Shown piece after piece: positions 605 to 26,806 of a stretch of 32,000 nucleotides of DNA. Each line of letters starts with the position of its first letter. Positions within the stretch are counted from its first letter, which is position 1. The stretch comes from Candidatus Altimarinota bacterium. GTDB taxonomy: Bacteria > Patescibacteriota > Gracilibacteria > UBA1369. The stretch covers positions 120,001 to 152,000 of the forward strand of contig JBAZYK010000002.1 in assembly GCA_041659405.1 (NCBI GenBank), written 5' to 3'. The position numbers were made by a program, and so were the translations under genes. The notes below the pieces were generated by a model that was not told where the DNA came from, made no database searches, and was given only the letters and a program-made list of their open reading frames with translations.

Positions 605-2752
605 TTAGACTCCCGTGTTTTGCTGTTTCAAAATTTCTTCCGGATTTGTAGTGACGATTTTGTCCTCGGTATAAGAGGCAATAATCTGGATAGCCACATG
701 GCGTAAACCGGCAAAGAAAAGCCCTTGCCCGACACCACTATTTAGCAACATATATTTTTCTCCTTCGGTAAGATTGAAAACTTTAGCCAAGACTTCAATT
801 GCAGAAGGAGCCTGTTTCAACAAAAGTTGCAAAGATGAGTTCGTAATAACCGGCTTACCATAAGGACTCTTCACAAAGTCTTCCACATCCTGGGTAATCG
901 TTGTAATTCCAAGATAATATTTACGGGCACGTTTTACCAAACCATACAAGAATTTTCCGGAATCTTCATACTGCATTAAGGTCCAGGCCTCATCAATAAC
1001 CAGCAAACGCTTTTTCAGTTCACTGCGAACACGATTCCAAATAAAATTCAAAATAATATACATCGCGATCGGCCTTAAACTGTCTTCCAAATCACGAATA
1101 CTAAAGACCATCAAACCACTGTTCATATCAATGTTTGTCGGCTTATTAAAAATACCCGCATAAGTTCCCTGAGTAAATTTTTGCAAACGTTGAGCCAAAC
1201 TTTGGCCGCCCTCCATCGTATTCAAAATATCATAAAGATCTTCCATGGTTGGAGGAACCAATGTTGATGGATCCAAGATATCCATCGTAATCCCTTTCAC
1301 CGCATAAACATCATTTAAAGCTTTATCCAAAATACCTTCCTCTGAAGGAGTTACGCCACCAAGCATAATCTTTAAAAGACCATGCAGATTAATAATATTG
1401 GAACGCAACAAATCACCGGGCTGCAATTCTTCATCTCTAAGCGCAGCCGGCAAATCAAAAGGATTAATACGACGATCAGAAGTCAAAGAAACGCGTAAAT
1501 AAGAACCACCAACTGTCTGGGCCAAAGCTTCATATTCATTTTCCGGGTCGATAATAATAACATCGGTACCAACCATCAATGAACGCAAAACTTCCAATTT
1601 TACAGCATAAGATTTTCCCGCACCTGACTTGGCAAAAACCACCGAATTCGCGTTTTCCAAAGAGAATCGGTCAAAAATAATTAAACTGTCATTATGACGA
1701 TTTAGTCCATACAAAATTCCATCATTGGAAGTAAGATCCGCAGAACTAAAAGGAAAAGTCGAAGACAAAGGAGATGTATTCATATTGCGGGAAACCTCCA
1801 ATTCATCCAGACACATTGGCAAACAAGAATTAAAACCATGCTCGGTTTGAAGCTCGGCCTTTTTAGTTAAAATAAGTTTTCCTCCCAGCATACTTTCCAG
1901 CTGCTTGGAAACCTTCATCAGTTTTTTATCATCATCGGAATAAATCGTAAAATAAAGCGCAAACTGGAAAAACTTTTCCTGACCACGCTGAATTTGAGTT
2001 CGAAGTTCTTCCGCATCTTCCAACGCCGTTTCCAAAGCCGGATCACGCACGATGCCCTTTTCCTGGGCAATATGGATAGCTGAATTCATTTGAGCAACTT
2101 TCTTCTTGAGAATCGACATAATTGCCGCAGAATCTATTGGATAAATAAATTGGGCGACATCCATCGTCACATCAAAATTAACAATCGGAGAAAGCCAATT
2201 GGTATCCAAATAACGTGGATAAGCATAAACAAAAAAAGTCTGGGCATAAAAACCTTCAACGCGAATCAAATCGTAGCGAATCTCCATTGAAGATGGTGAA
2301 ATCAAATCACGAATTGTTGAAATTCCCTGTTGATAAATCTTTTCAGCTTCAAGCAGTTTTTGGCGTTCCTCTGCGGAAGCTTTATCCTGTTCTTTCTTGG
2401 ATAACTGCTTTTCGGCTTCAATTTGATTGGTTGGAGGCCGCATTTCAACAGGCAACCCGGCATTTTTGCTACTTTCTATGGTCGCCTGGCTTTTTTGAGC
2501 CGCGGTTTTGGCCTTACCAAAAGCAGGTTCGATCCAACCCTTTATAAAATCAGCGAACAAATCGTGCTTTTTAGCTACAACTTGCAGATTCACAGGTTGA
2601 GTTACTTCATTTTGCGCAGAAACTTCAGCAGCCTGAGCCGAAGAGGTTTCAACCTGAGCTGGGGCTTGAGCCTGTGCGCCATCAACCTGAGCCTGTGCAC
2701 CGTCAACTTGAGCTTGCGCGGGATCCAAAACTTGAGATTTTTCCTCTGCCAT
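605..2752 (-). CDS. VirB4/TraC-family (DUF87-like) secretion/conjugation ATPase with a low-complexity N-terminal extension
   Basis: 715-aa ORF. Walker A is FAKSGAGKSYAVK and Walker B is LLVIDEAWTLM. A VirB4-type RARKYYLGITTITQDVEDF motif is present. The N-terminal ~60 aa are an Ala/Gln/Val-rich repeat (AQAQVDG x2). Confidence 0.8.
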   Translation of the reverse strand: MAEEKSQVLDPAQAQVDGAQAQVDGAQAQAPAQVETSSAQAAEVSAQNEVTQPVNLQVVAKKHDLFADFIKGWIEPAFGKAKTAAQKSQATIESSKNAGLPVEMRPPTNQIEAEKQLSKKEQDKASAEERQKLLEAEKIYQQGISTIRDLISPSSMEIRYDLIRVEGFYAQTFFVYAYPRYLDTNWLSPIVNFDVTMDVAQFIYPIDSAAIMSILKKKVAQMNSAIHIAQEKGIVRDPALETALEDAEELRTQIQRGQEKFFQFALYFTIYSDDDKKLMKVSKQLESMLGGKLILTKKAELQTEHGFNSCLPMCLDELEVSRNMNTSPLSSTFPFSSADLTSNDGILYGLNRHNDSLIIFDRFSLENANSVVFAKSGAGKSYAVKLEVLRSLMVGTDVIIIDPENEYEALAQTVGGSYLRVSLTSDRRINPFDLPAALRDEELQPGDLLRSNIINLHGLLKIMLGGVTPSEEGILDKALNDVYAVKGITMDILDPSTLVPPTMEDLYDILNTMEGGQSLAQRLQKFTQGTYAGIFNKPTNIDMNSGLMVFSIRDLEDSLRPIAMYIILNFIWNRVRSELKKRLLVIDEAWTLMQYEDSGKFLYGLVKRARKYYLGITTITQDVEDFVKSPYGKPVITNSSLQLLLKQAPSAIEVLAKVFNLTEGEKYMLLNSGVGQGLFFAGLRHVAIQIIASYTEDKIVTTNPEEILKQQNTGV
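2650..2722 (-). repeat. Imperfect 21-nt in-frame tandem repeat encoding AQAQVDG units at the N-terminus of the VirB4-like protein
   Basis: + strand units gagcctgtgcgccatcaacct (2668-2688) and gagcctgtgcaccgtcaactt (2689-2709), with partial copies on both sides. Confidence 0.6.
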
Positions 2753-13964: not shown

Positions 13965-14294
13965 ATGAAAAAAATAATCGAACAACCGGACGTCCAATTT
14001 ATTTTAACAGGTGGAACTATTGATTCATATTATGATGCAACGAAAGACACAGCCGTTCCAAATCGTCACTCAGTTATTCCTGAATACATTAAATCGCTCA
14101 AAATAAACAATAAAGTCATATTCACTCAGGTCTGCATGAAGGACAGCAGAAGCTTAACTCAAAACGATCGAAAAAAAATCTTAGAAACGATTGAAAAAAG
14201 TGTATCTAAAAAAATCATCATCACACATGGAACCTATACCATGCCCGACACAGCAAAATATTTACAAGCCAATCTAAAAAGAAAAAAAAGGTGA
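13965..14294 (+). CDS. Asparaginase-family protein, upstream fragment, interrupted by a frameshift in an A8 tract
   Basis: ILTGGTIDS (asparaginase Thr motif 1) and IITHGTYTMPDTAKYL (variant of HGTDT motif 2). Ends at a TGA immediately after aaaaagaaaaaaaagg. Confidence 0.6.
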   Translation: MKKIIEQPDVQFILTGGTIDSYYDATKDTAVPNRHSVIPEYIKSLKINNKVIFTQVCMKDSRSLTQNDRKKILETIEKSVSKKIIITHGTYTMPDTAKYLQANLKRKKR

Positions 14295-14494
14295 TTATCC
14301 TTACTGGATCAATGATTCCTATCCAAGGCTTTTCACCTTCCGATGCAGGATTTAATTTAGGTTTTGCCCTTGGCCAACTAAACTACTTACCTGATGGCAT
14401 TTATGTCTGCATGAATGGTACAATCTTTAATCCTCAAGAAGTTGTGAAAATTATCAACGAGGGTAAATTCACATCAGTTTTTTCAAGATCATAG
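14291..14494 (+). CDS. Asparaginase-family protein, downstream fragment in the -1 frame
   Basis: VIILTGSMIP matches the conserved (V)LTGAMRP strand that follows motif 2 in asparaginases. This frame is open back to 14195, so the two parts join across the A-run. Confidence 0.6.
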   Translation: MIILTGSMIPIQGFSPSDAGFNLGFALGQLNYLPDGIYVCMNGTIFNPQEVVKIINEGKFTSVFSRS

Positions 14495-22033: not shown

Positions 22034-25000
22034 ATGAAGAATCGACACTTTCTTAAGGTAGGAATCATAATTCTCACCGCTTTAATTCTGGGGTTTATTG
22101 ATCTACCTGCCCAATATCAACAAAAACTCATCGGGGCCAGCCCAACCGGGACTCAATTAAACATACTGGATAGTCTAAAAAAATCTCTACTGGATAGCAA
22201 CTTTCATCTTGGCCTGGACTTACAAGGAGGCTCTCAGCTCGATTATCAAATCGACCTTCGCAAAGTGCCATCAAAGGATCAACAAAACATTATCGATGGT
22301 GTTGTTAATGTCATCAACAACCGTGTTAATGGCTTAGGCGTATCTGAACCGAACATTTATGTTTCTTCCGTAGCCGATGAAAAACATATCGTTGTGGAAC
22401 TCGCCGGAATCAAAGACTTGGAAGAAGCAAAAGCAATAGTAGGTAAGACCATTCAGCTGGAGTTTAAGGAAAGGAAAAAAACTGCTGACACAACTTCTGA
22501 TTCTACCGCAAAAGCGGGAGCAGAAGCTCTTTTGGCAAAAGTTAAAACCGGAGGAGACCTTGCCCTGCTAGGAAAACAGGAACAACAAGCCAATCCTGAA
22601 AAAGTTACCCACACAGAAAGTGATTATCAATATAAAGATGAAACTTCAACAGAAATAGCAGACATCCTTTTTAATACATTAAAAGTTGGCGAGGTTTACA
22701 GCCAAATTGTAAGTGCCAGTGGATCTTATACCGTTGATTCAAGCGGAAATCTTACTCAAAACAAAGGATATGAAACAATTAAACTGGTTGATAAACGTGA
22801 TCAACAAAGAACAATTGATAACAAAGCTTCCGCAAAAGTTGCACACATTTTAATTGCCTATAAAGGAGCTTCCAAAGCAGATGCAGGTGTAGCAAGAACA
22901 AAAGATGAAGCTAAAAAATTGGCTGACGATATTTTAAAGAAAATCCAGGGTGGTGAAAATTTTGAGAACCTGGCTAAACAATATTCAGATGACAAAGCCG
23001 ATAAAGACCAGGGTGGATTATTACCAAACCCGGTCACCGGTCCGGGCGATGGTTACGTAAAACCATTTGAAGATGCCGCCCTGGCTTTAAAGAAAAACGG
23101 CGATCTTTCCCCTGTTACAGAAAGTGAGTTTGGTTTCCACCTTATTAAGGGAATCGAAATCAAAGCAGCTTCAACCGAAACAAAGACAGAATCACAAGTT
23201 AAATACATCAGTACTTTCTATAGTGCTGCTCCGGATGAATGGCAGGATACTGGCTTAACAGGAGCACAATTCATACATGCAGATACCGAATTCACTCAGC
23301 TTGCTCAACCATATGTGACTATCCAATTTAATGACGAAGGAGCAAAACTTTTTGAACAAATCACCGAAAGAAATGTTGGACAACCGGTTGCAATCTTTGT
23401 TGGTGGTAAATTGATTTCTTCCCCAAAGGTAAACGAAAAAATTTCCGGAGGAAAAGCTCAAATCACCGGCAACTACACACTTGATGAAGCCAGCAATCTT
23501 GCCCGCGACTTAAATACAGGTGCAATTCCTGCACCAATCGTTTTGGCAGGACAAAACACTATCGGGGCCACATTGGGCCAGGACGCGCTAAATAAGAGTT
23601 TATGGGCAGGTCTTATCGGCTTTATCTTGATAGCTTTGTTCATGACCCTTTACTATCGTCTACCTGGTTTATTGGCGGTAGTGGCTTTGATGGTCTACTC
23701 AATCATCATGCTTTTCTTGATAAAAATTGCCTTACCAATTGGCTGGGCTTTAGCAATTTCCATTGGCGTTTTTGTCTATTTGATTACCCGCATCTTAAAC
23801 TCCAAAGAATCTGGTCCGGAAAAAGGAATTTCCCTGATTCTTTCTTGTTTCATTCTCTTCTTCTTAAGCTTCTTACTTTCCACACCAATCGTTATGACTT
23901 TAGCCGGTATTGCCGGTGTGATCCTTTCAATTGGTATGGCTGTTGATGCCAATATTCTTATCTTTGAAAGAGTTAAAGAAGAACTTCGTGATGGCAGACC
24001 ATTAAGCGCCGCTATTGAAATCGGTTTTGACCGTGCTTGGAGCAGTATTCGTGATTCAAACTTCTCTTCCCTGATCACTTGCAGCATCCTTTTCTACTTT
24101 GGAAGCTCAATCATTCAAGGTTTTGCCTTCAACCTTGCTGCCGGTATTTTGGTTTCCATGTTCACGGCAATCACAGTGAGCAAAACTCTTATTGGAGCTT
24201 TAACAAGAACTAAACTGGCTGACAAACTTTGGTTATTCGGCGCTCCAAAAAATAAAGAAAGAAAACTTTGGCCAATCATCCAAACTCGCAAAATTTCTTA
24301 CATCATTTCAGGAGCTTTGCTTGTTATTGCCCTAATTGGTATCCCGGCTTTTGGCATTAAATTAGGCTTGGACTTCACGGGAGGAACTTTGATGGAACTA
24401 AAATTCAAAACTCTCCAGGGTGAACAAATGCAACAAATCAGTCTAATCGAAAAAGCATTAACAGAAAGCACCAATGCTTTGAATCAAAAAGTAACAACTC
24501 CGGCTGCCAACAATAATCAACCGGCTATAACCGGAACAGACAGCAAGATTGACCTTGGGACTCCACATATCGTTCCAAGTGAGCAGGGTTACCTGATCAA
24601 GACCAAAACCATCACTTCGGATCAGCACGACCAATTGCTCGTACAACTCAAACAACGCTTAGGTGATTTTGAAGAGGTTCACTTTAACACTGTTGGCCCA
24701 ACAGTAGGAGAAAGCTTACGTTACAAAGCAATCTTTGCCGTTATTATAGCGAGTTTGATGATCATCATTTACATTGCTTTCGCTTTCCGCAGAATTCCTC
24801 GCCACATTGGTAAATGGAAATTCGGTACAGCGGCTGTTGTTGCCCTTTTGCATGATCTTGGCATTATGCTTGGTGTTTATGTTTACTTTGGTGTGTTCTT
24901 TGGAGTACAGATCGATGCCCTGTTTATTACAGCCATGCTCACGGTTCTTGGCTTCTCGGTGCACGACACAATCGTAGTATTCGATCGTATCCGTGAAAAA

Positions 25001-25276
25001 CTTAAGTATCAAAAACGTGATGAAAGCTTCACGGAAGTTTCTAACCAGGCTGTAAACGAAACTATTGCCCGTTCTATCAATACTTCACTTGCAGTATTCC
25101 TGACTTTACTTGCTTTAGCGATCTTTGGAGCTGAAAGCGTCCGCTTCTTTGTCATAACCTTAATGGTTGGTATCGTTGCCGGTACTTATTCTTCAATCTT
25201 TATAGCTACACCTATTCTGGTTGATTGGAACTTGTACAACGCAAAAAAGAAGCTGGAAGGCGGCAAGAAGAAATAA
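22034..25276 (+). CDS. secDF: Fused protein-export membrane protein SecDF carrying an inserted parvulin-type PPIase region in the P1 loop
   Basis: 1080 aa. SecD motifs: LDLQGGSQL, NRVNGLGVSEPNI, VAIFVGGKLISSPKV, GIAGVILSIGMAVDANILIFERVKEE. SecF motifs: LGLDFTGGT, GFSVHDTIVVFDRIRE. The parvulin motif block spans residues ~265-376. Confidence 0.92.
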   Translation: MKNRHFLKVGIIILTALILGFIDLPAQYQQKLIGASPTGTQLNILDSLKKSLLDSNFHLGLDLQGGSQLDYQIDLRKVPSKDQQNIIDGVVNVINNRVNGLGVSEPNIYVSSVADEKHIVVELAGIKDLEEAKAIVGKTIQLEFKERKKTADTTSDSTAKAGAEALLAKVKTGGDLALLGKQEQQANPEKVTHTESDYQYKDETSTEIADILFNTLKVGEVYSQIVSASGSYTVDSSGNLTQNKGYETIKLVDKRDQQRTIDNKASAKVAHILIAYKGASKADAGVARTKDEAKKLADDILKKIQGGENFENLAKQYSDDKADKDQGGLLPNPVTGPGDGYVKPFEDAALALKKNGDLSPVTESEFGFHLIKGIEIKAASTETKTESQVKYISTFYSAAPDEWQDTGLTGAQFIHADTEFTQLAQPYVTIQFNDEGAKLFEQITERNVGQPVAIFVGGKLISSPKVNEKISGGKAQITGNYTLDEASNLARDLNTGAIPAPIVLAGQNTIGATLGQDALNKSLWAGLIGFILIALFMTLYYRLPGLLAVVALMVYSIIMLFLIKIALPIGWALAISIGVFVYLITRILNSKESGPEKGISLILSCFILFFLSFLLSTPIVMTLAGIAGVILSIGMAVDANILIFERVKEELRDGRPLSAAIEIGFDRAWSSIRDSNFSSLITCSILFYFGSSIIQGFAFNLAAGILVSMFTAITVSKTLIGALTRTKLADKLWLFGAPKNKERKLWPIIQTRKISYIISGALLVIALIGIPAFGIKLGLDFTGGTLMELKFKTLQGEQMQQISLIEKALTESTNALNQKVTTPAANNNQPAITGTDSKIDLGTPHIVPSEQGYLIKTKTITSDQHDQLLVQLKQRLGDFEEVHFNTVGPTVGESLRYKAIFAVIIASLMIIIYIAFAFRRIPRHIGKWKFGTAAVVALLHDLGIMLGVYVYFGVFFGVQIDALFITAMLTVLGFSVHDTIVVFDRIREKLKYQKRDESFTEVSNQAVNETIARSINTSLAVFLTLLALAIFGAESVRFFVITLMVGIVAGTYSSIFIATPILVDWNLYNAKKKLEGGKKK

Positions 25277-25383: not shown

Positions 25384-25460
25384 GCGCCAATAGCTCAGCT
25401 GGATAGAGCGTCGGTCTTCGGAACCGAAGGTTGTGGGTTCGATTCCCTCTTGGCGCACCA
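25384..25460 (+). tRNA. tRNA-Arg, anticodon UCG, with genomically encoded CCA
   Basis: Hand-folded cloverleaf. Acceptor GCGCCAA/TTGGCGC. D-arm GCTC-AGCTGGATA-GAGC. Anticodon stem TCGGT/ACCGA with loop CTTCGGA. T-arm GTGGG-TTCGATT-CCCTC, with one T-T mismatch. Discriminator A, then CCA. Confidence 0.93.
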
Positions 25461-25560: not shown

Positions 25561-25911
25561 CTATCGAAATTCCCTTTGGATTCTAGCCGAAGTCATCAAG
25601 GCATTAAAGACAATCAAACCCTGTTCAAGCATTGAGTCCTTTACTAATTCACTGGACAAATTTTGCCTTAACATTTCCACTATTTCGAGCCAAATTTTTT
25701 CATATTTCACCCCACTCAAACCAAGCTTTTTACGCAAATCAATCCCCTTGCCATTTTTAATTTCAGCCACAAATTCAGCTTGATTAGCTTGGATATAATC
25801 CAAGAGCAGTTTCTTTTCAAAAACAAGCCGTTTATCGGCTTTTATATCAAACAAAAGCTCTAAACGATCTTTAAAAGATTTTTGCTTTAATGTATGTTGT
25901 TCAAGCGACAT
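25561..25911 (-). CDS. Hypothetical protein (116 aa, predicted helical), no family recognised
   Basis: Clean ATG-to-stop ORF filling the gap between the tRNA region and the next gene. K/E/L-rich. No motif I can name. Confidence 0.55.
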   Translation of the reverse strand: MSLEQHTLKQKSFKDRLELLFDIKADKRLVFEKKLLLDYIQANQAEFVAEIKNGKGIDLRKKLGLSGVKYEKIWLEIVEMLRQNLSSELVKDSMLEQGLIVFNALMTSARIQREFR

Positions 25912-25954
25912 ATCAAGTTTAAAGGGATCTTCTTTTTACCACATTTAATTGAAC

Positions 25955-26806
25955 ATGTCAAGACCAGCAACACGCAAAATGGAAAAACCAACAATTTTCA
26001 TTTTTTATGGAGTAGAAGGCACCCCGCAAGAAAACTGGTTTCCATGGCTTAAAAAAGAGCTAAAAGGAAGCCGCTATCAGGTCATTATTCCGCCACTTCC
26101 CACTCCACAAAAACAGACCTTAAAAGATTGGCTTAAAGCGTTTGAACCATACAAAAAGCATCTAAACTCGGAAAGCATTTTTATTGGTCATAGTTTAGGC
26201 GTTTTGTTTACCTTGAACCTGATCGAGAAATTCAAAATCAAAGCCGCTTATTTGGTAGCTGGATTTGGAAAACTACCTGGAAACAAATTTGATGAAGGAA
26301 TGAAAACTTTCGCCAAAAAATTTGATTGGAAAAAAATTCGCCAAAATTGTAAAAAGTTCTATGTTTTCGCCGGAGATAACGATCCTTATGTAAAATTGAC
26401 GATTTCCAAGGATTTATCAAAAAAGACTCAAACTGATCTGATTCTTGTGCCAAACGGTGGCCACCTTAACCAGAGCGCCGGTTTTAAAAAATTCCCACTT
26501 CTTTTAGAAAAGATACAGAATGTGATAACCCCTTCCTTAAAAGCCAAAAGCCACTCCCCTTTCCAAATTGAAGAAGTCACTTTTGAAAAAGGCGAAATCA
26601 TCGAAATCACACCAGACATGATCATTGGCGATGTAGTCTTAGCCTTTCCCGAAACTTTACCTGTTCTGCAAAATATTGGAATTCATTGTATAGGTTGCTA
26701 CGCAGCCACCTTTGAAAGCATTCAAGAAGGTGTAACAAAACACGGCCTGGACCCAAAAAAAGTCTGTAAAGAACTCAATAAAGCCATCAGAAATGAACTT
26801 CGCTGA
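25955..26806 (+). CDS. YdeN/RBBP9-type alpha/beta serine hydrolase fused to a DUF1858-like CxxC redox-disulfide domain
   Basis: N-terminal part: IFIFYG, nucleophile elbow GHSLG, GDNDPYV (Asp), NGGHLN (His). C-terminal ~65 aa: ITPDMIIGDVVLAFPETLPVLQNIGIHCIGCYAATFESIQEGVTKHGLD. The start could be TTG 25949, ATG 25955 or ATG 25979. Confidence 0.75.
   Translation: MSRPATRKMEKPTIFIFYGVEGTPQENWFPWLKKELKGSRYQVIIPPLPTPQKQTLKDWLKAFEPYKKHLNSESIFIGHSLGVLFTLNLIEKFKIKAAYLVAGFGKLPGNKFDEGMKTFAKKFDWKKIRQNCKKFYVFAGDNDPYVKLTISKDLSKKTQTDLILVPNGGHLNQSAGFKKFPLLLEKIQNVITPSLKAKSHSPFQIEEVTFEKGEIIEITPDMIIGDVVLAFPETLPVLQNIGIHCIGCYAATFESIQEGVTKHGLDPKKVCKELNKAIRNELR

What the first reader, a model, noticed from the sequence alone, without database searches (positions are those of the whole stretch)
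22481..23167. SecDF with a tandem parvulin (PPIase/chaperone) module inserted in its extracytoplasmic P1 domain
The 1080-aa ORF is an unambiguous SecD-SecF fusion, but its first extracytoplasmic loop is about 230 aa too long. The extra block sits between P1-base-like strands (GKTIQLEFKERKK, ~aa 140) and the P1-head-like segment (LTGAQFIHADTEF...VAIFVGGKLISSPKV). Residues ~265-376 read as a complete parvulin/PpiC domain: KVAHILIAYKG...GENFENLAKQYSDD...QGGLL...FEDAALALKKNGDLSPVTESEFGFHLIKG. Both conserved His positions are retained. Residues ~155-255 look like a second, degenerate parvulin: LLAKVKTGGDLALLGKQ...ILFNTLKVGEVYSQIVSASG...YETIKLVDKR, with the His replaced by Glu. This recalls the inactive/active domain pair of SurA. 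Parvulin foldases (PrsA, SurA, PpiD) are normally separate proteins. A covalent insertion into the mobile P1 head, which grips emerging substrates, would tie folding catalysis directly to the translocon pulling motor. I cannot tell from the sequence alone whether this architecture has been described.
Basis: partly seen in the sequence, partly recalled or inferred. Interest (0 to 1): 0.75.

Follow-up and report, generated by a model that had tools for sequence, protein, structure and literature searches.

The report
SecDF translocon motor with built-in parvulins
A bacterial protein-export motor (SecDF) from an uncultured Patescibacteria lineage carries a pair of prolyl-isomerase (parvulin) folding domains, one apparently active and one degenerate, spliced into its outward-facing arm; this fusion is standard in that group of bacteria but has not been described in the papers searched.

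Summary
ORF 22034-25276 (+, 1080 aa) is an intact SecD-SecF fusion. The three essential motor residues are present: D638, D978 and R1013. About 246 residues (aa 155-400) replace a 27-residue segment of T. thermophilus SecDF, at the junction between the P1 base strand and the P1 head.

Residues 263-378 are a canonical parvulin (Pfam E=2.5e-28). Its catalytic-type residues H271, D320 and H369 are kept in 94-99% of 117 homologs.

Residues 148-262 are a diverged parvulin that lacks its own beta1 strand and has no conserved His. It falls below the Pfam threshold in this protein. Support comes from family-wide Pfam hits, hhalign (95-96%) and Foldseek, whose best match is the first PPIase domain of SurA.

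Assembly chimerism is excluded. All 120 best relatives share the architecture, and one lies on a 1.44-Mb contig with the same gene order.

The fusion is widespread in Patescibacteria: a single, circularly permuted parvulin in Moranbacteria/Parcubacteria, tandem parvulins in Peregrinibacteria/Gracilibacteria, and longer inserts in Peribacteria. All are annotated as plain SecD or SecF, and no paper describing the fusion was found.

The most likely function is a translocon-tethered foldase/chaperone that acts on chains held by the P1 head. This is a new variant of known kinds.

The parts
22034..25276 (+). SecDF fusion gene (1080 aa plus stop)
   Evidence: ORF list. Pfam and NCBIfam: TIGR01129 secD 386 bits (cutoff 244), TIGR00966 SecF 308 bits (cutoff 160). 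The AF2 model matches SecDF crystal structures: 3aqp_A TMt 0.71, 5xap TMt 0.66.
22211..22474 (+). N-terminal part of the P1 base (aa 60-147), ending in the conserved strand GKTIQLEFKE
   Evidence: PF21760 SecD_1st at aa 88-147. Aligns to Tt SecDF 36-125. Residues Q141-K145 are invariant in 117 homologs.
22475..22819 (+). N-half of the insert (aa 148-262): a degenerate parvulin unit that starts at helix alpha1 with no beta1 of its own. Glu247 stands at the second-His position.
   Evidence: Sub-threshold Rotamase in this protein. 16/24 relatives hit Rotamase, best E=1.3e-6. hhalign to the C-half 94.9-96%. AF2 pLDDT 84-94 with parvulin element order. Foldseek top hits are SurA first PPIase domain prob 0.97 and full-length SurA prob 0.96 and 0.85. 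Position 247 is variable: N46/Y24/H19/S9/L4/E3.
22820..23167 (+). C-half of the insert (aa 263-378): a canonical parvulin/PpiC domain with H271 (22844-22846), D320 (22991-22993) and H369 (23138-23140)
   Evidence: Rotamase_3 E=2.5e-28 and Rotamase E=1.2e-21. PDB sequence hits: PrsA1 5htf E=1.3e-11, Pin1 E~1e-8 to 1e-10. Pin1 alignment gives H271=H59, D320=C113, H369=H157. Kept in 110, 113 and 116 of 117 homologs.
23168..23233 (+). Trailing strand and linker (aa 379-400, 'ESQVKYISTFYS'): a beta1-like strand that has lost its His, leading into the P1 head
   Evidence: AF2 strand E380-397. K390 is >=90% conserved in both alignments and Q388 in the 30-sequence alignment. It occupies the same position as the His-bearing 'EVKASHILxK' strand of single-parvulin SecDs. 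Placing it in front of the N-half raises the hhalign score to a canonical parvulin from 46.8 to 53.3, and it aligns to beta1.
23234..23563 (+). P1 head subdomain (aa 401-510), the proposed precursor-binding element
   Evidence: PF22599 E=7.2e-27. Aligns to Tt SecDF 153-271. 70% mean pairwise identity in the family. Its role in precursor contact is from PMC5974789.
23564..24253 (+). SecD transmembrane bundle TM2-6 (aa 511-740) with the essential Asp of TM4, D638 (23945-23947)
   Evidence: PF02355/MMPL. Tt D340 aligns to D638, which is invariant in 117 sequences. Its essentiality in Thermus is from PMC5974789.
24254..25261 (+). SecF half: TM7, the P4 loop (aa 776-888) and TM8-12, with D978 (24965-24967) and R1013 (25070-25072)
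   Evidence: TIGR00966 SecF and PF02355 at aa 875-1066. Tt D637 aligns to D978 and Tt R671 to R1013; both are invariant.

Best explanation
This is a working, proton-driven SecDF translocation factor that carries its own extracytoplasmic foldase module. A two-unit parvulin cassette is spliced into the connection between the P1 base strand and the substrate-binding P1 head. The second unit (aa 263-378) is a canonical parvulin that keeps the His/Asp/His active-site constellation, so it is predicted to catalyse prolyl cis/trans isomerisation. The first unit (aa 148-262) has lost those residues and its own beta1 strand. It most likely acts as a peptide-binding or scaffolding domain, as the first PPIase domain of SurA does, and may be completed by the trailing beta1-like strand (aa 383-397), which would leave the active unit nested at its tip. 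Because the cassette is tethered beside the P1 head, unfolded chains leaving SecYEG and held by the head would meet a chaperone/PPIase at very high local concentration. That would couple release from the motor to the first folding steps and would do covalently what PrsA, PpiD/YfgM, SurA or the Mycoplasma PrsA-like dome do by non-covalent association. Shown here: the domain identities, the insertion point, the conservation of motor and parvulin residues, and the wide distribution in Patescibacteria. Inferred: catalytic activity, action on translocating substrates, the geometry relative to the head cavity, and replacement of a free PrsA.
For: Architecture: Pfam and NCBIfam. Insertion point mapped on Tt SecDF. 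AF2 full-length pLDDT 83, with the insert at 84-94. The SecDF fold is confirmed. Intact motor: D638, D978 and R1013 align to the essential Tt D340, D637 and R671 and are invariant. Competent parvulin: H271, D320 and H369 align to Pin1 H59, C113 and H157 and are kept in 110-116 of 117 homologs; the closest solved relatives by sequence are PrsA foldases. Degenerate first unit. Selection: the insert's length is tightly conserved (N-half 101-121 aa, C-half 113-137 aa) although it diverges faster than the core. The architecture is kept in all 120 best homologs and in at least 94 of 121 complete-P1 representatives of 50%-identity clusters. It also occurs in Moranbacteria/Parcubacteria, in Peribacteria, and in code-25 Gracilibacteria. 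Biological plausibility: the P1-head cavity contacts precursors (PMC5974789). Non-covalent translocon-parvulin partnerships are documented: PpiD/YfgM-SecYEG (PMC9643414) and SurA-holotranslocon (PMC9987972), both listed, and Mycoplasma PrsA-like proteins cross-linked to SecD and forming a dome on the translocon (bioRxiv 10.1101/2024.09.05.611430 and 10.1101/2025.04.25.650208).
Against: No activity or substrate data exist for any member. Parvulin domains of SurA, PpiD and PrsA are often dispensable or inactive in vivo (established knowledge), so conserved active-site residues do not prove that catalysis matters. I had no model coordinates or PAE, so the position of the parvulin active site relative to the P1-head cavity and the SecY exit is unknown, and so is the pairing of the trailing strand. 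I could not survey whole genomes for free PrsA/PpiD homologs. One survey reports 'PrsA' annotations in CPR classes (PMC9166423), so the fused module may supplement a free foldase and not replace it. The N-half's structural match is modest (Foldseek E=0.02, TM 0.46-0.57).
Confidence: 0.7

Rival explanations
1. The cassette is a non-catalytic holdase or substrate clamp. Both parvulin units serve only as peptide-binding surfaces that enlarge or replace part of the P1-head grip, and prolyl isomerisation is irrelevant, as for PpiD and largely for SurA.
For: The first unit has clearly lost its catalytic residues, and its best structural match is the first PPIase domain of SurA, solved with a bound peptide. 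The insert evolves faster than the SecDF core (39-49% against 66-75% pairwise identity). In some single-parvulin relatives both His positions are degenerate (P0254, P0255 and P0262).
Against: H271, D320 and H369 are kept in 94-99% of 117 homologs. The two His residues are also kept in most permuted single-parvulin SecDs: 92 of 94 scorable proteins have FGxHII followed by xHIL. Such retention over deep divergence is hard to explain if only generic binding mattered.
Confidence: 0.2
2. The cassette has a structural or regulatory role unrelated to client folding. It might act as a spacer that reaches the wall or S-layer of these monoderm-like cells, a docking site for another envelope machine, or a brake or gate on P1-head movement.
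For: The insert length varies in steps among lineages: about 130, 250 and >=340 aa. Peribacteria add further non-parvulin sequence and a coiled-coil-like segment in P1.
Against: The inserted domain is always a parvulin, a dedicated protein-folding fold, and its active-site residues are conserved. No other domain type was found at this site in the sample.
Confidence: 0.07
3. The architecture is an artefact: a chimeric assembly or a frameshift-joined gene model that fuses a parvulin gene into secDF.
For: None found.
Against: All 120 best homologs from NCBI, JGI, ENA and Logan assemblies have the same architecture. The 67%-identical ortholog on a 1.44-Mb contig lies in the same gene order over about 15 kb. 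Base composition is uniform across the gene. AF2 models one continuous, confident protein.
Confidence: 0.01

Closest known systems
Canonical SecDF (Thermus thermophilus, PDB 3AQP/5YHF; Deinococcus radiodurans 5XAN/5XAP)
   Same: 12 TM helices of the RND type. P1 base, P1 head and P4 loops. Essential Asp(TM4), Asp(TM10) and Arg(TM11). SecD and SecF fused in one chain. TMt 0.66-0.71 to the AF2 model.
   Different: About 246 residues (tandem parvulin units plus a trailing strand) replace the 27-residue segment Tt 126-152 between the base strand and the head. No solved or described SecDF carries a foldase domain.
PrsA lipoprotein foldase of Bacillota (e.g. Listeria PrsA1 5HTF, B. subtilis PrsA 4WO7)
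   Same: An extracytoplasmic, membrane-tethered parvulin that acts after Sec translocation. PrsA proteins are the best solved sequence relatives of the C-half (E=1.3e-11). The active site is of the non-phospho-specific His/Asp/His type.
   Different: There is no N/C chaperone (NC) domain and no lipobox. NCBIfam PrsA models match only aa 274-381, at 50 bits against cutoffs of about 360. The tether here is the SecDF polypeptide itself.
SurA (E. coli, 1M5Y; first PPIase domain 2PV1)
   Same: Tandem parvulins in which the first is degenerate and the second retains the catalytic residues. The N-half's best structural match is SurA's first PPIase domain.
   Different: There is no SurA N-/C-terminal core domain: no SurA_N Pfam hit, and NF008038 scores 35 bits against a cutoff of 394. 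SurA is a soluble periplasmic protein of diderms. The first unit here lacks its own beta1 strand.
PpiD-YfgM on SecYEG (E. coli) and SurA-holotranslocon contacts
   Same: A parvulin-containing chaperone stationed at the exit of the Sec translocon (PMC9643414 and PMC9987972, listed).
   Different: Those are separate proteins that bind non-covalently. By established knowledge, PpiD's parvulin is catalytically inactive and PpiD has its own TM anchor.
Mycoplasma pneumoniae Mdp/Mpn444-436-489 'dome' on the Sec translocon
   Same: PrsA-like PPIase/chaperone proteins physically coupled to SecDF in a wall-less, genome-reduced bacterium. Mpn444 cross-links to SecD (bioRxiv 10.1101/2024.09.05.611430 and 10.1101/2025.04.25.650208).
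   Different: That system uses large separate lipoproteins forming a trimeric dome. Here one or two small parvulin units are inserted into SecD itself.

Membership tests
SecDF protein-export membrane protein (RND superfamily) | Two SecD/SecF-type six-helix membrane bundles | tested here: met
   PF02355 in 3 stretches, E=1.4e-65. TIGR01129 secD 386 bits (cutoff 244). TIGR00966 SecF 308 bits (cutoff 160). Foldseek to 3aqp_A TMt 0.71.
SecDF protein-export membrane protein (RND superfamily) | Large first extracytoplasmic loop with P1 base and P1 head subdomains | tested here: met
   PF21760 at aa 88-147 and PF22599 at aa 406-500. Colinear alignment to Tt SecDF 36-125 and 153-271.
SecDF protein-export membrane protein (RND superfamily) | Essential proton-pathway residues Asp(TM4), Asp(TM10) and Arg(TM11) | tested here: met
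   D638, D978 and R1013 align to Tt D340, D637 and R671 and are invariant in 117 homologs.
SecDF protein-export membrane protein (RND superfamily) | PMF-dependent stimulation of Sec translocation | not testable with these tools
   Needs in vivo complementation or in vitro translocation and proton-flux assays.
Parvulin/PpiC PPIase domain: C-half, aa 263-378 | Profile match above the curated threshold | tested here: met
   PF13616 99.4 bits (cutoff 22.5). PF00639 77.9 bits (cutoff 21.7), covering profile positions 1-94 of 97.
Parvulin/PpiC PPIase domain: C-half, aa 263-378 | Active-site His...Asp/Cys...His constellation (Pin1 H59, C113, H157) | tested here: met
   H271, D320 and H369 by alignment to Pin1. 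Kept in 110, 113 and 116 of 117 homologs.
Parvulin/PpiC PPIase domain: C-half, aa 263-378 | beta-alpha3-beta-alpha-beta2 parvulin fold | tested here: met
   The AF2 element order is E266-274, H290-305, H310-317, H321-324, H343-350, E362-364, E367-377, at pLDDT of about 84-93. This unit was not given its own domain-level fold search.
Parvulin/PpiC PPIase domain: C-half, aa 263-378 | Measured prolyl isomerase activity | not testable with these tools
   Needs a biochemical assay.
Parvulin/PpiC PPIase domain: N-half, aa 148-262 | Profile match above the curated threshold | tested here: not met
   In this protein PF00639 scores 16.6-16.7 bits against a cutoff of 21.7. At family level, 16 of 24 relatives hit PF00639 (best E=1.3e-6) and 16 of 24 hit PF13145. 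hhalign to the canonical C-half gives 94.9% global and 96% local. A distant relative, L020, has two above-threshold Rotamase stretches at the same site.
Parvulin/PpiC PPIase domain: N-half, aa 148-262 | Parvulin fold | tested here: inconclusive
Parvulin/PpiC PPIase domain: N-half, aa 148-262 | Active-site His...Asp/Cys...His constellation | tested here: not met
   There is no beta1-His strand at its N-terminus. The second-His position (aa 247) is Glu here and N/Y/H/S/L/E across the family.
PrsA foldase family | N- and C-terminal chaperone (NC) domain flanking the parvulin | tested here: not met
   NCBIfam PrsA models match only aa 274-381, at 36-50 bits against cutoffs of 343-361. The flanks are SecD P1 base and head.
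PrsA foldase family | Lipoprotein signal peptide with lipobox Cys | tested here: not met
   The parvulin is internal to a polytopic membrane protein, and the N-terminus is SecD TM1 (aa 6-22).
SurA chaperone family | SurA N-terminal/C-terminal core chaperone domain | tested here: not met
   No SurA_N-type Pfam hit at E<=1. NF008038 SurA scores 35 bits against a cutoff of 394 and covers only aa 238-378.
SurA chaperone family | Two tandem parvulin domains, the first degenerate and the second intact | tested here: met
   for the first unit. for the second.

The most novel reading that the evidence does not exclude
The parvulin cassette is mechanically coupled to the proton-driven swing of the P1 head, so SecDF in Patescibacteria is an energy-coupled translocation-and-folding machine. 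Each power stroke would hand the captured segment to an active-site-competent parvulin that isomerises or clamps it and so prevents back-sliding. On this reading the fused module has replaced free PrsA/PpiD-type foldases in these genome-reduced, monoderm-like bacteria. The series of tandem and single (circularly permuted) forms would then record how the module was built inside SecD.
Probability: 0.2. Interest if true: 0.8.

Novelty: new variant of a known kind. Interest (0 to 1): 0.62.

Why it matters
How chains leaving SecYEG are handed from the pulling factor SecDF to extracytoplasmic foldases is an active question. Current work includes PpiD/YfgM, SurA-holotranslocon contacts and the 2025 Mycoplasma 'dome'.

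A covalent SecDF-parvulin fusion that is conserved across a huge bacterial radiation gives Rosetta-stone evidence that SecDF's P1 arm and parvulin foldases work on the same substrate at the same place.

It also offers a compact, single-polypeptide system in which to test that coupling, through structures, PPIase assays, and deletion or point mutants in heterologous hosts.

The family shows natural intermediates of circular permutation of the parvulin fold inside a host protein, which is useful for studies of protein evolution and engineering.

Practically, thousands of database entries annotated only as 'SecD' or 'SecF' hide a foldase domain, and this may distort inventories of CPR chaperones.

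Tried and rejected
1. Chimeric assembly is rejected.
2. The N-half as a SurA_N- or PrsA-NC-type helical chaperone domain is rejected. Pfam gives no such hit, and all weak hits are Rotamase families.
3. The first hhalign of N-half against C-half, using 30 sequences, gave only a 28-column match at 74%. It was repeated with 117 sequences.
4. The profile search of the N-half against PDB sequences was weak. The best hit was a spurious repeat protein, and the parvulins PpiD, PrsA and Par10 scored only E=0.14-0.85.
6. The idea that the P1-base strand 'IQLEFKE' serves as the N-half's beta1 is not supported by sequence. Adding it lowers the hhalign score from 46.8 to 43.7, and it is low-confidence in the isolated-domain model.
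7. The promoter/terminator scan around the gene was uninformative.
8. Seven literature searches found no description of a SecD/SecDF-parvulin fusion or of a permuted parvulin.
9. No model coordinates or PAE were accessible, so I could not measure the geometry of the cassette relative to the head cavity.
10. I could not scan whole genomes for free-standing PrsA-like genes.
Full report
**What is there.** The window holds a 1080-aa ORF at 22034-25276 on the + strand. The finding's coordinates, 22481-23167, are exactly residues 150-378 of that ORF.

Pfam places these domains in order:
- SecD_1st at aa 88-147
- Rotamase_3 at aa 249-375 (E=2.5e-28), with Rotamase at aa 271-372 (E=1.2e-21)
- SecDF_P1_head at aa 406-500
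- three SecD_SecF_C stretches (E=1.4e-65)
- two Sec_GG motifs

NCBIfam's SecD and SecF domain models pass their cutoffs. The AF2 full-length model was built on 117 homologs and has mean pLDDT 83. It superposes on the solved SecDF structures, with TMt 0.71 to 3aqp_A and 0.66 to 5xap.

The three residues that are essential in Thermus SecDF are D340, D637 and R671 (PMC5974789). They align to D638, D978 and R1013 here, and all three are invariant in 117 homologs. The host protein is therefore an intact SecDF and not a decayed one.

**Where the extra block sits.** Sequence alignment to T. thermophilus SecDF pairs our aa 60-154 with Tt 36-125 and our aa 401-519 with Tt 153-271. About 246 residues here stand where Thermus has 27, a net excess of about 220 aa. 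The block lies between the conserved base strand GKTIQLEFKE and the start of the P1 head (W-x-D-T-G-L-T-G). The insertion is thus at the base-to-head connection, on the N-terminal edge of the head, and not inside the head's core.

**The second unit (aa 263-378) is a canonical parvulin.**
- It matches the Pfam Rotamase model from position 1 to 94 of 97.
- Its closest solved sequence relatives are PrsA foldases and Pin1.
- Alignment to Pin1 gives H271=His59, D320=Cys113 and H369=His157. Asp at the Cys113 position is usual for bacterial parvulins (established knowledge).
- These residues are kept in 110, 113 and 116 of 117 homologs.
- Pin1's phosphate-binding basic residues are not conserved, so the domain looks like a general, non-phospho-specific parvulin.

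**The first unit (aa 148-262) is a degenerate parvulin.** In this protein it is below Pfam's threshold (16.6-16.7 bits against 21.7). The family-level evidence converges:
- 16 of 24 relatives hit Rotamase (best E=1.3e-6) and 16 of 24 hit Rotamase_2.
- Profile-profile comparison with the canonical unit gives 94.9% in global mode (91 columns, template positions 14-115) and 96% in local mode.
- AF2 models it confidently (pLDDT 84-94) with the parvulin order of elements, minus alpha3.
- An isolated-domain model has pLDDT 77. It finds SurA's first PPIase domain as top Foldseek hit (prob 0.97, TMt 0.57), followed by full-length SurA chains (prob 0.96 and 0.85). The E-value is only 0.02, and every non-parvulin hit has probability below 0.2.
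- A distant relative, L020, has two above-threshold Rotamase stretches at the same site.

The position equivalent to the second catalytic His is Glu247 here and varies across the family as N/Y/H/S/L/E. There is no His-bearing beta1 strand at the unit's N-terminus.

**An unexpected detail: strand order.** The first unit starts at helix alpha1, directly after the SecD base strand. After the second unit comes a conserved strand, aa 383-397 'SQVKYISTFYS', that leads into the head.

In SecD proteins of Moranbacteria/Parcubacteria, which carry a single parvulin, the same layout is obvious. The domain starts at alpha1, and the canonical beta1 motif with the catalytic His ('E-V-K-A-S-H-I-L-x-K') follows the beta4 motif 'FG[FWY]HIIK' after a short acidic or Gly-rich turn. 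Of 94 scorable proteins, 92 have the xHIL strand after beta4 and none has one before alpha1. This is a circularly permuted parvulin. One cluster, P0180, has the canonical order.

In our family, moving the trailing strand in front of the first unit raises its hhalign score to a canonical parvulin from 46.8 to 53.3, and the strand aligns to beta1. Adding the native base strand instead lowers the score to 43.7.

The layout [alpha1..beta4]-beta1[alpha1..beta4]-beta1'' is what the duplication/deletion route to circular permutation predicts. I infer, without coordinates to prove it, that the trailing strand completes the first unit's sheet and that the active unit is nested at its tip. The very long strands E240-263 and E380-397 in the model are consistent with a two-stranded stalk.

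**Not an artefact, and not rare.**
- All 120 best homologs (92-53% identity; NCBI, JGI, ENA and Logan) have Rotamase plus SecDF domains.
- The 67%-identical ortholog on a 1.44-Mb contig lies in the same gene order as here: PK, RuvC, TPR, PilD, iPGM, ManC, cupin, SecDF, then PriA, aaRS and CTP synthase (compared).
- In one-genome-per-species GTDB contigs, full-length matches to the insert plus both junctions occur in Peregrinibacteria, Peribacteria, Gracilibacteria and 'Patescibacteria group' MAGs. One exception is labelled Gammaproteobacteria (L020). The set includes a Gracilibacteria gene that is intact only under genetic code 25. Hits from other phyla cover only the parvulin and are free-standing PPIases.
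- An exhaustive search of 1.84 billion cluster representatives gave 276 proteins at E<=1e-30.

Among the 121 listed representatives with a complete P1, the base-to-head gap sorts as follows:

| Gap (aa) | Count | Reading |
|---|---|---|
| <60 | 27 | canonical, no insert |
| 60-180 | 23 | single unit |
| 180-300 | 54 | tandem, like ours |
| >=300 | 17 | Peribacteria type |

Pfam confirmed examples of each class. The single-parvulin form is general in Moranbacteria/Parcubacteria. All of these records are named just SecD, SecF or SecD/SecF fusion.

**Constraint on the insert.** The insert diverges faster than the core. Mean pairwise identity is 39% for the first unit and 49% for the second, against 70-75% for the P1 base and head and 66-69% for the TM bundles. 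Its length is tightly held, at 101-121 aa and 113-137 aa. This fits folded, selected domains under looser constraint.

**Mechanism (inference).** The P1-head cavity contacts precursor proteins, and the head swings between membrane-facing and upright forms during the proton-driven cycle (PMC5974789). A parvulin cassette tethered at the head's N-terminal edge would meet the emerging unfolded chain at very high local concentration. I propose that the intact unit catalyses prolyl isomerisation while the degenerate unit binds or scaffolds, which would couple release from the motor to the first folding steps.

This is what separate proteins do elsewhere:
- PrsA in Bacillota.
- PpiD/YfgM and SurA at the E. 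coli translocon (PMC9643414 and PMC9987972).
- PrsA-like Mdp proteins that cross-link to SecD and form a dome on the Mycoplasma translocon.

The main rival is a purely non-catalytic holdase or clamp role. A structural or regulatory spacer role is less likely, because the inserted fold is always a parvulin with conserved active-site residues.

**Comparison with known families.** The protein is a member of SecDF; all testable features are met. Its second insert unit is a member of the parvulin family. It is not a PrsA (no NC domain, no lipobox) and not a SurA (no core domain), although it works like a membrane-tethered PrsA and is laid out like SurA's P1/P2 pair.

Seven full-text searches found no paper describing a SecD/SecDF-parvulin fusion or a permuted parvulin. 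The library lacks most subscription journals, and the domain co-occurrence is visible in precomputed Pfam tables. The claim is therefore 'undescribed as far as I could search', not 'unseen'.

**Verdict.** This is a new variant of known kinds: an accessory foldase domain built into a known motor. It is lineage-wide in Patescibacteria, with a permutation series as a bonus. Interest is moderate to high (0.62). It does not overturn anything, but it gives a natural covalent link between the translocon motor and extracytoplasmic folding catalysts, and that link makes the hand-over question directly testable.

Noticed in passing
Proteins P0191, P0192, P0198, P0207, P0175, P0177, P0228, P0230, P0232 and P0275-P0393 (relatives, not in the window); equivalent window segment 23168-23233: SecD of Moranbacteria/Parcubacteria carries a single, circularly permuted parvulin. 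The domain starts at helix alpha1 after the base strand, and the His-bearing beta1 strand ('EVKASHILxK') follows beta4 ('FGxHIIK'). This holds in 92 of 94 scorable proteins. One cluster (P0180) has the canonical order.
   Followed up: partly
L021, L028, L029, L065 (Peribacteria loci); P0133-P0170 class with a base-to-head gap >=300 aa: Peribacteria SecD is encoded without a fused SecF (about 830 aa). It has a still longer insert of about 340-400 aa before the head, with only one above-threshold parvulin, plus an extra coiled-coil-like segment early in P1. The content of the additional ~200 aa was not resolved.
   Followed up: partly
L001 5659-8640: The Gracilibacteria ortholog of the SecDF-parvulin gene is an intact 994-aa ORF only when UGA is read as a sense codon (code 25). 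Under code 11 it breaks at 675 aa. So the architecture spans lineages with different genetic codes.
   Followed up: partly
L020 737-2905: A 6.7-kb contig binned as 'Gammaproteobacteria' encodes a CPR-type SecD with two above-threshold parvulin units, the first with GYNIVKY and the second with FGYHLIKA. It is probably a mis-binned Patescibacteria contig.
   Followed up: no
window 13965-14294 and 14291-14494 (+): One asparaginase-type gene is split over two overlapping ORFs in different frames (Pfam Asparaginase profile positions 2-102 and 107-162). This could be a frameshift, a pseudogene or a sequencing error.
   Followed up: partly
window 605-2752 (-): A TraG/VirB4-like P-loop ATPase (TraG P-loop, AAA_10 and TraC_F_IV hits) lies in a housekeeping neighbourhood. 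It may belong to the Patescibacteria type IV secretion system discussed in PMC12102498.
   Followed up: no
window 24425-24568 (aa ~798-845 of SecDF, P4 loop of the SecF half): The P4 loop has a helix followed by a low-complexity, low-confidence stretch (pLDDT <50 at aa 823-835). P4 length varies from 82 to 161 aa across the family, so this is a second variable extracytoplasmic region of the protein.
   Followed up: no
window 25949-26806 (+): An ORF combines a Ser_hydrolase (alpha/beta hydrolase) domain with a C-terminal DUF1858. The function of this combination is unclear.
   Followed up: no
window 25384-25460 (+) and 25561-25911 (-): A tRNA-Arg(TCG) lies directly downstream of secDF. It is followed by a 116-aa ORF on the opposite strand with no Pfam match. 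This interval differs from the syntenic 1.44-Mb contig, which has other small ORFs there.
   Followed up: no
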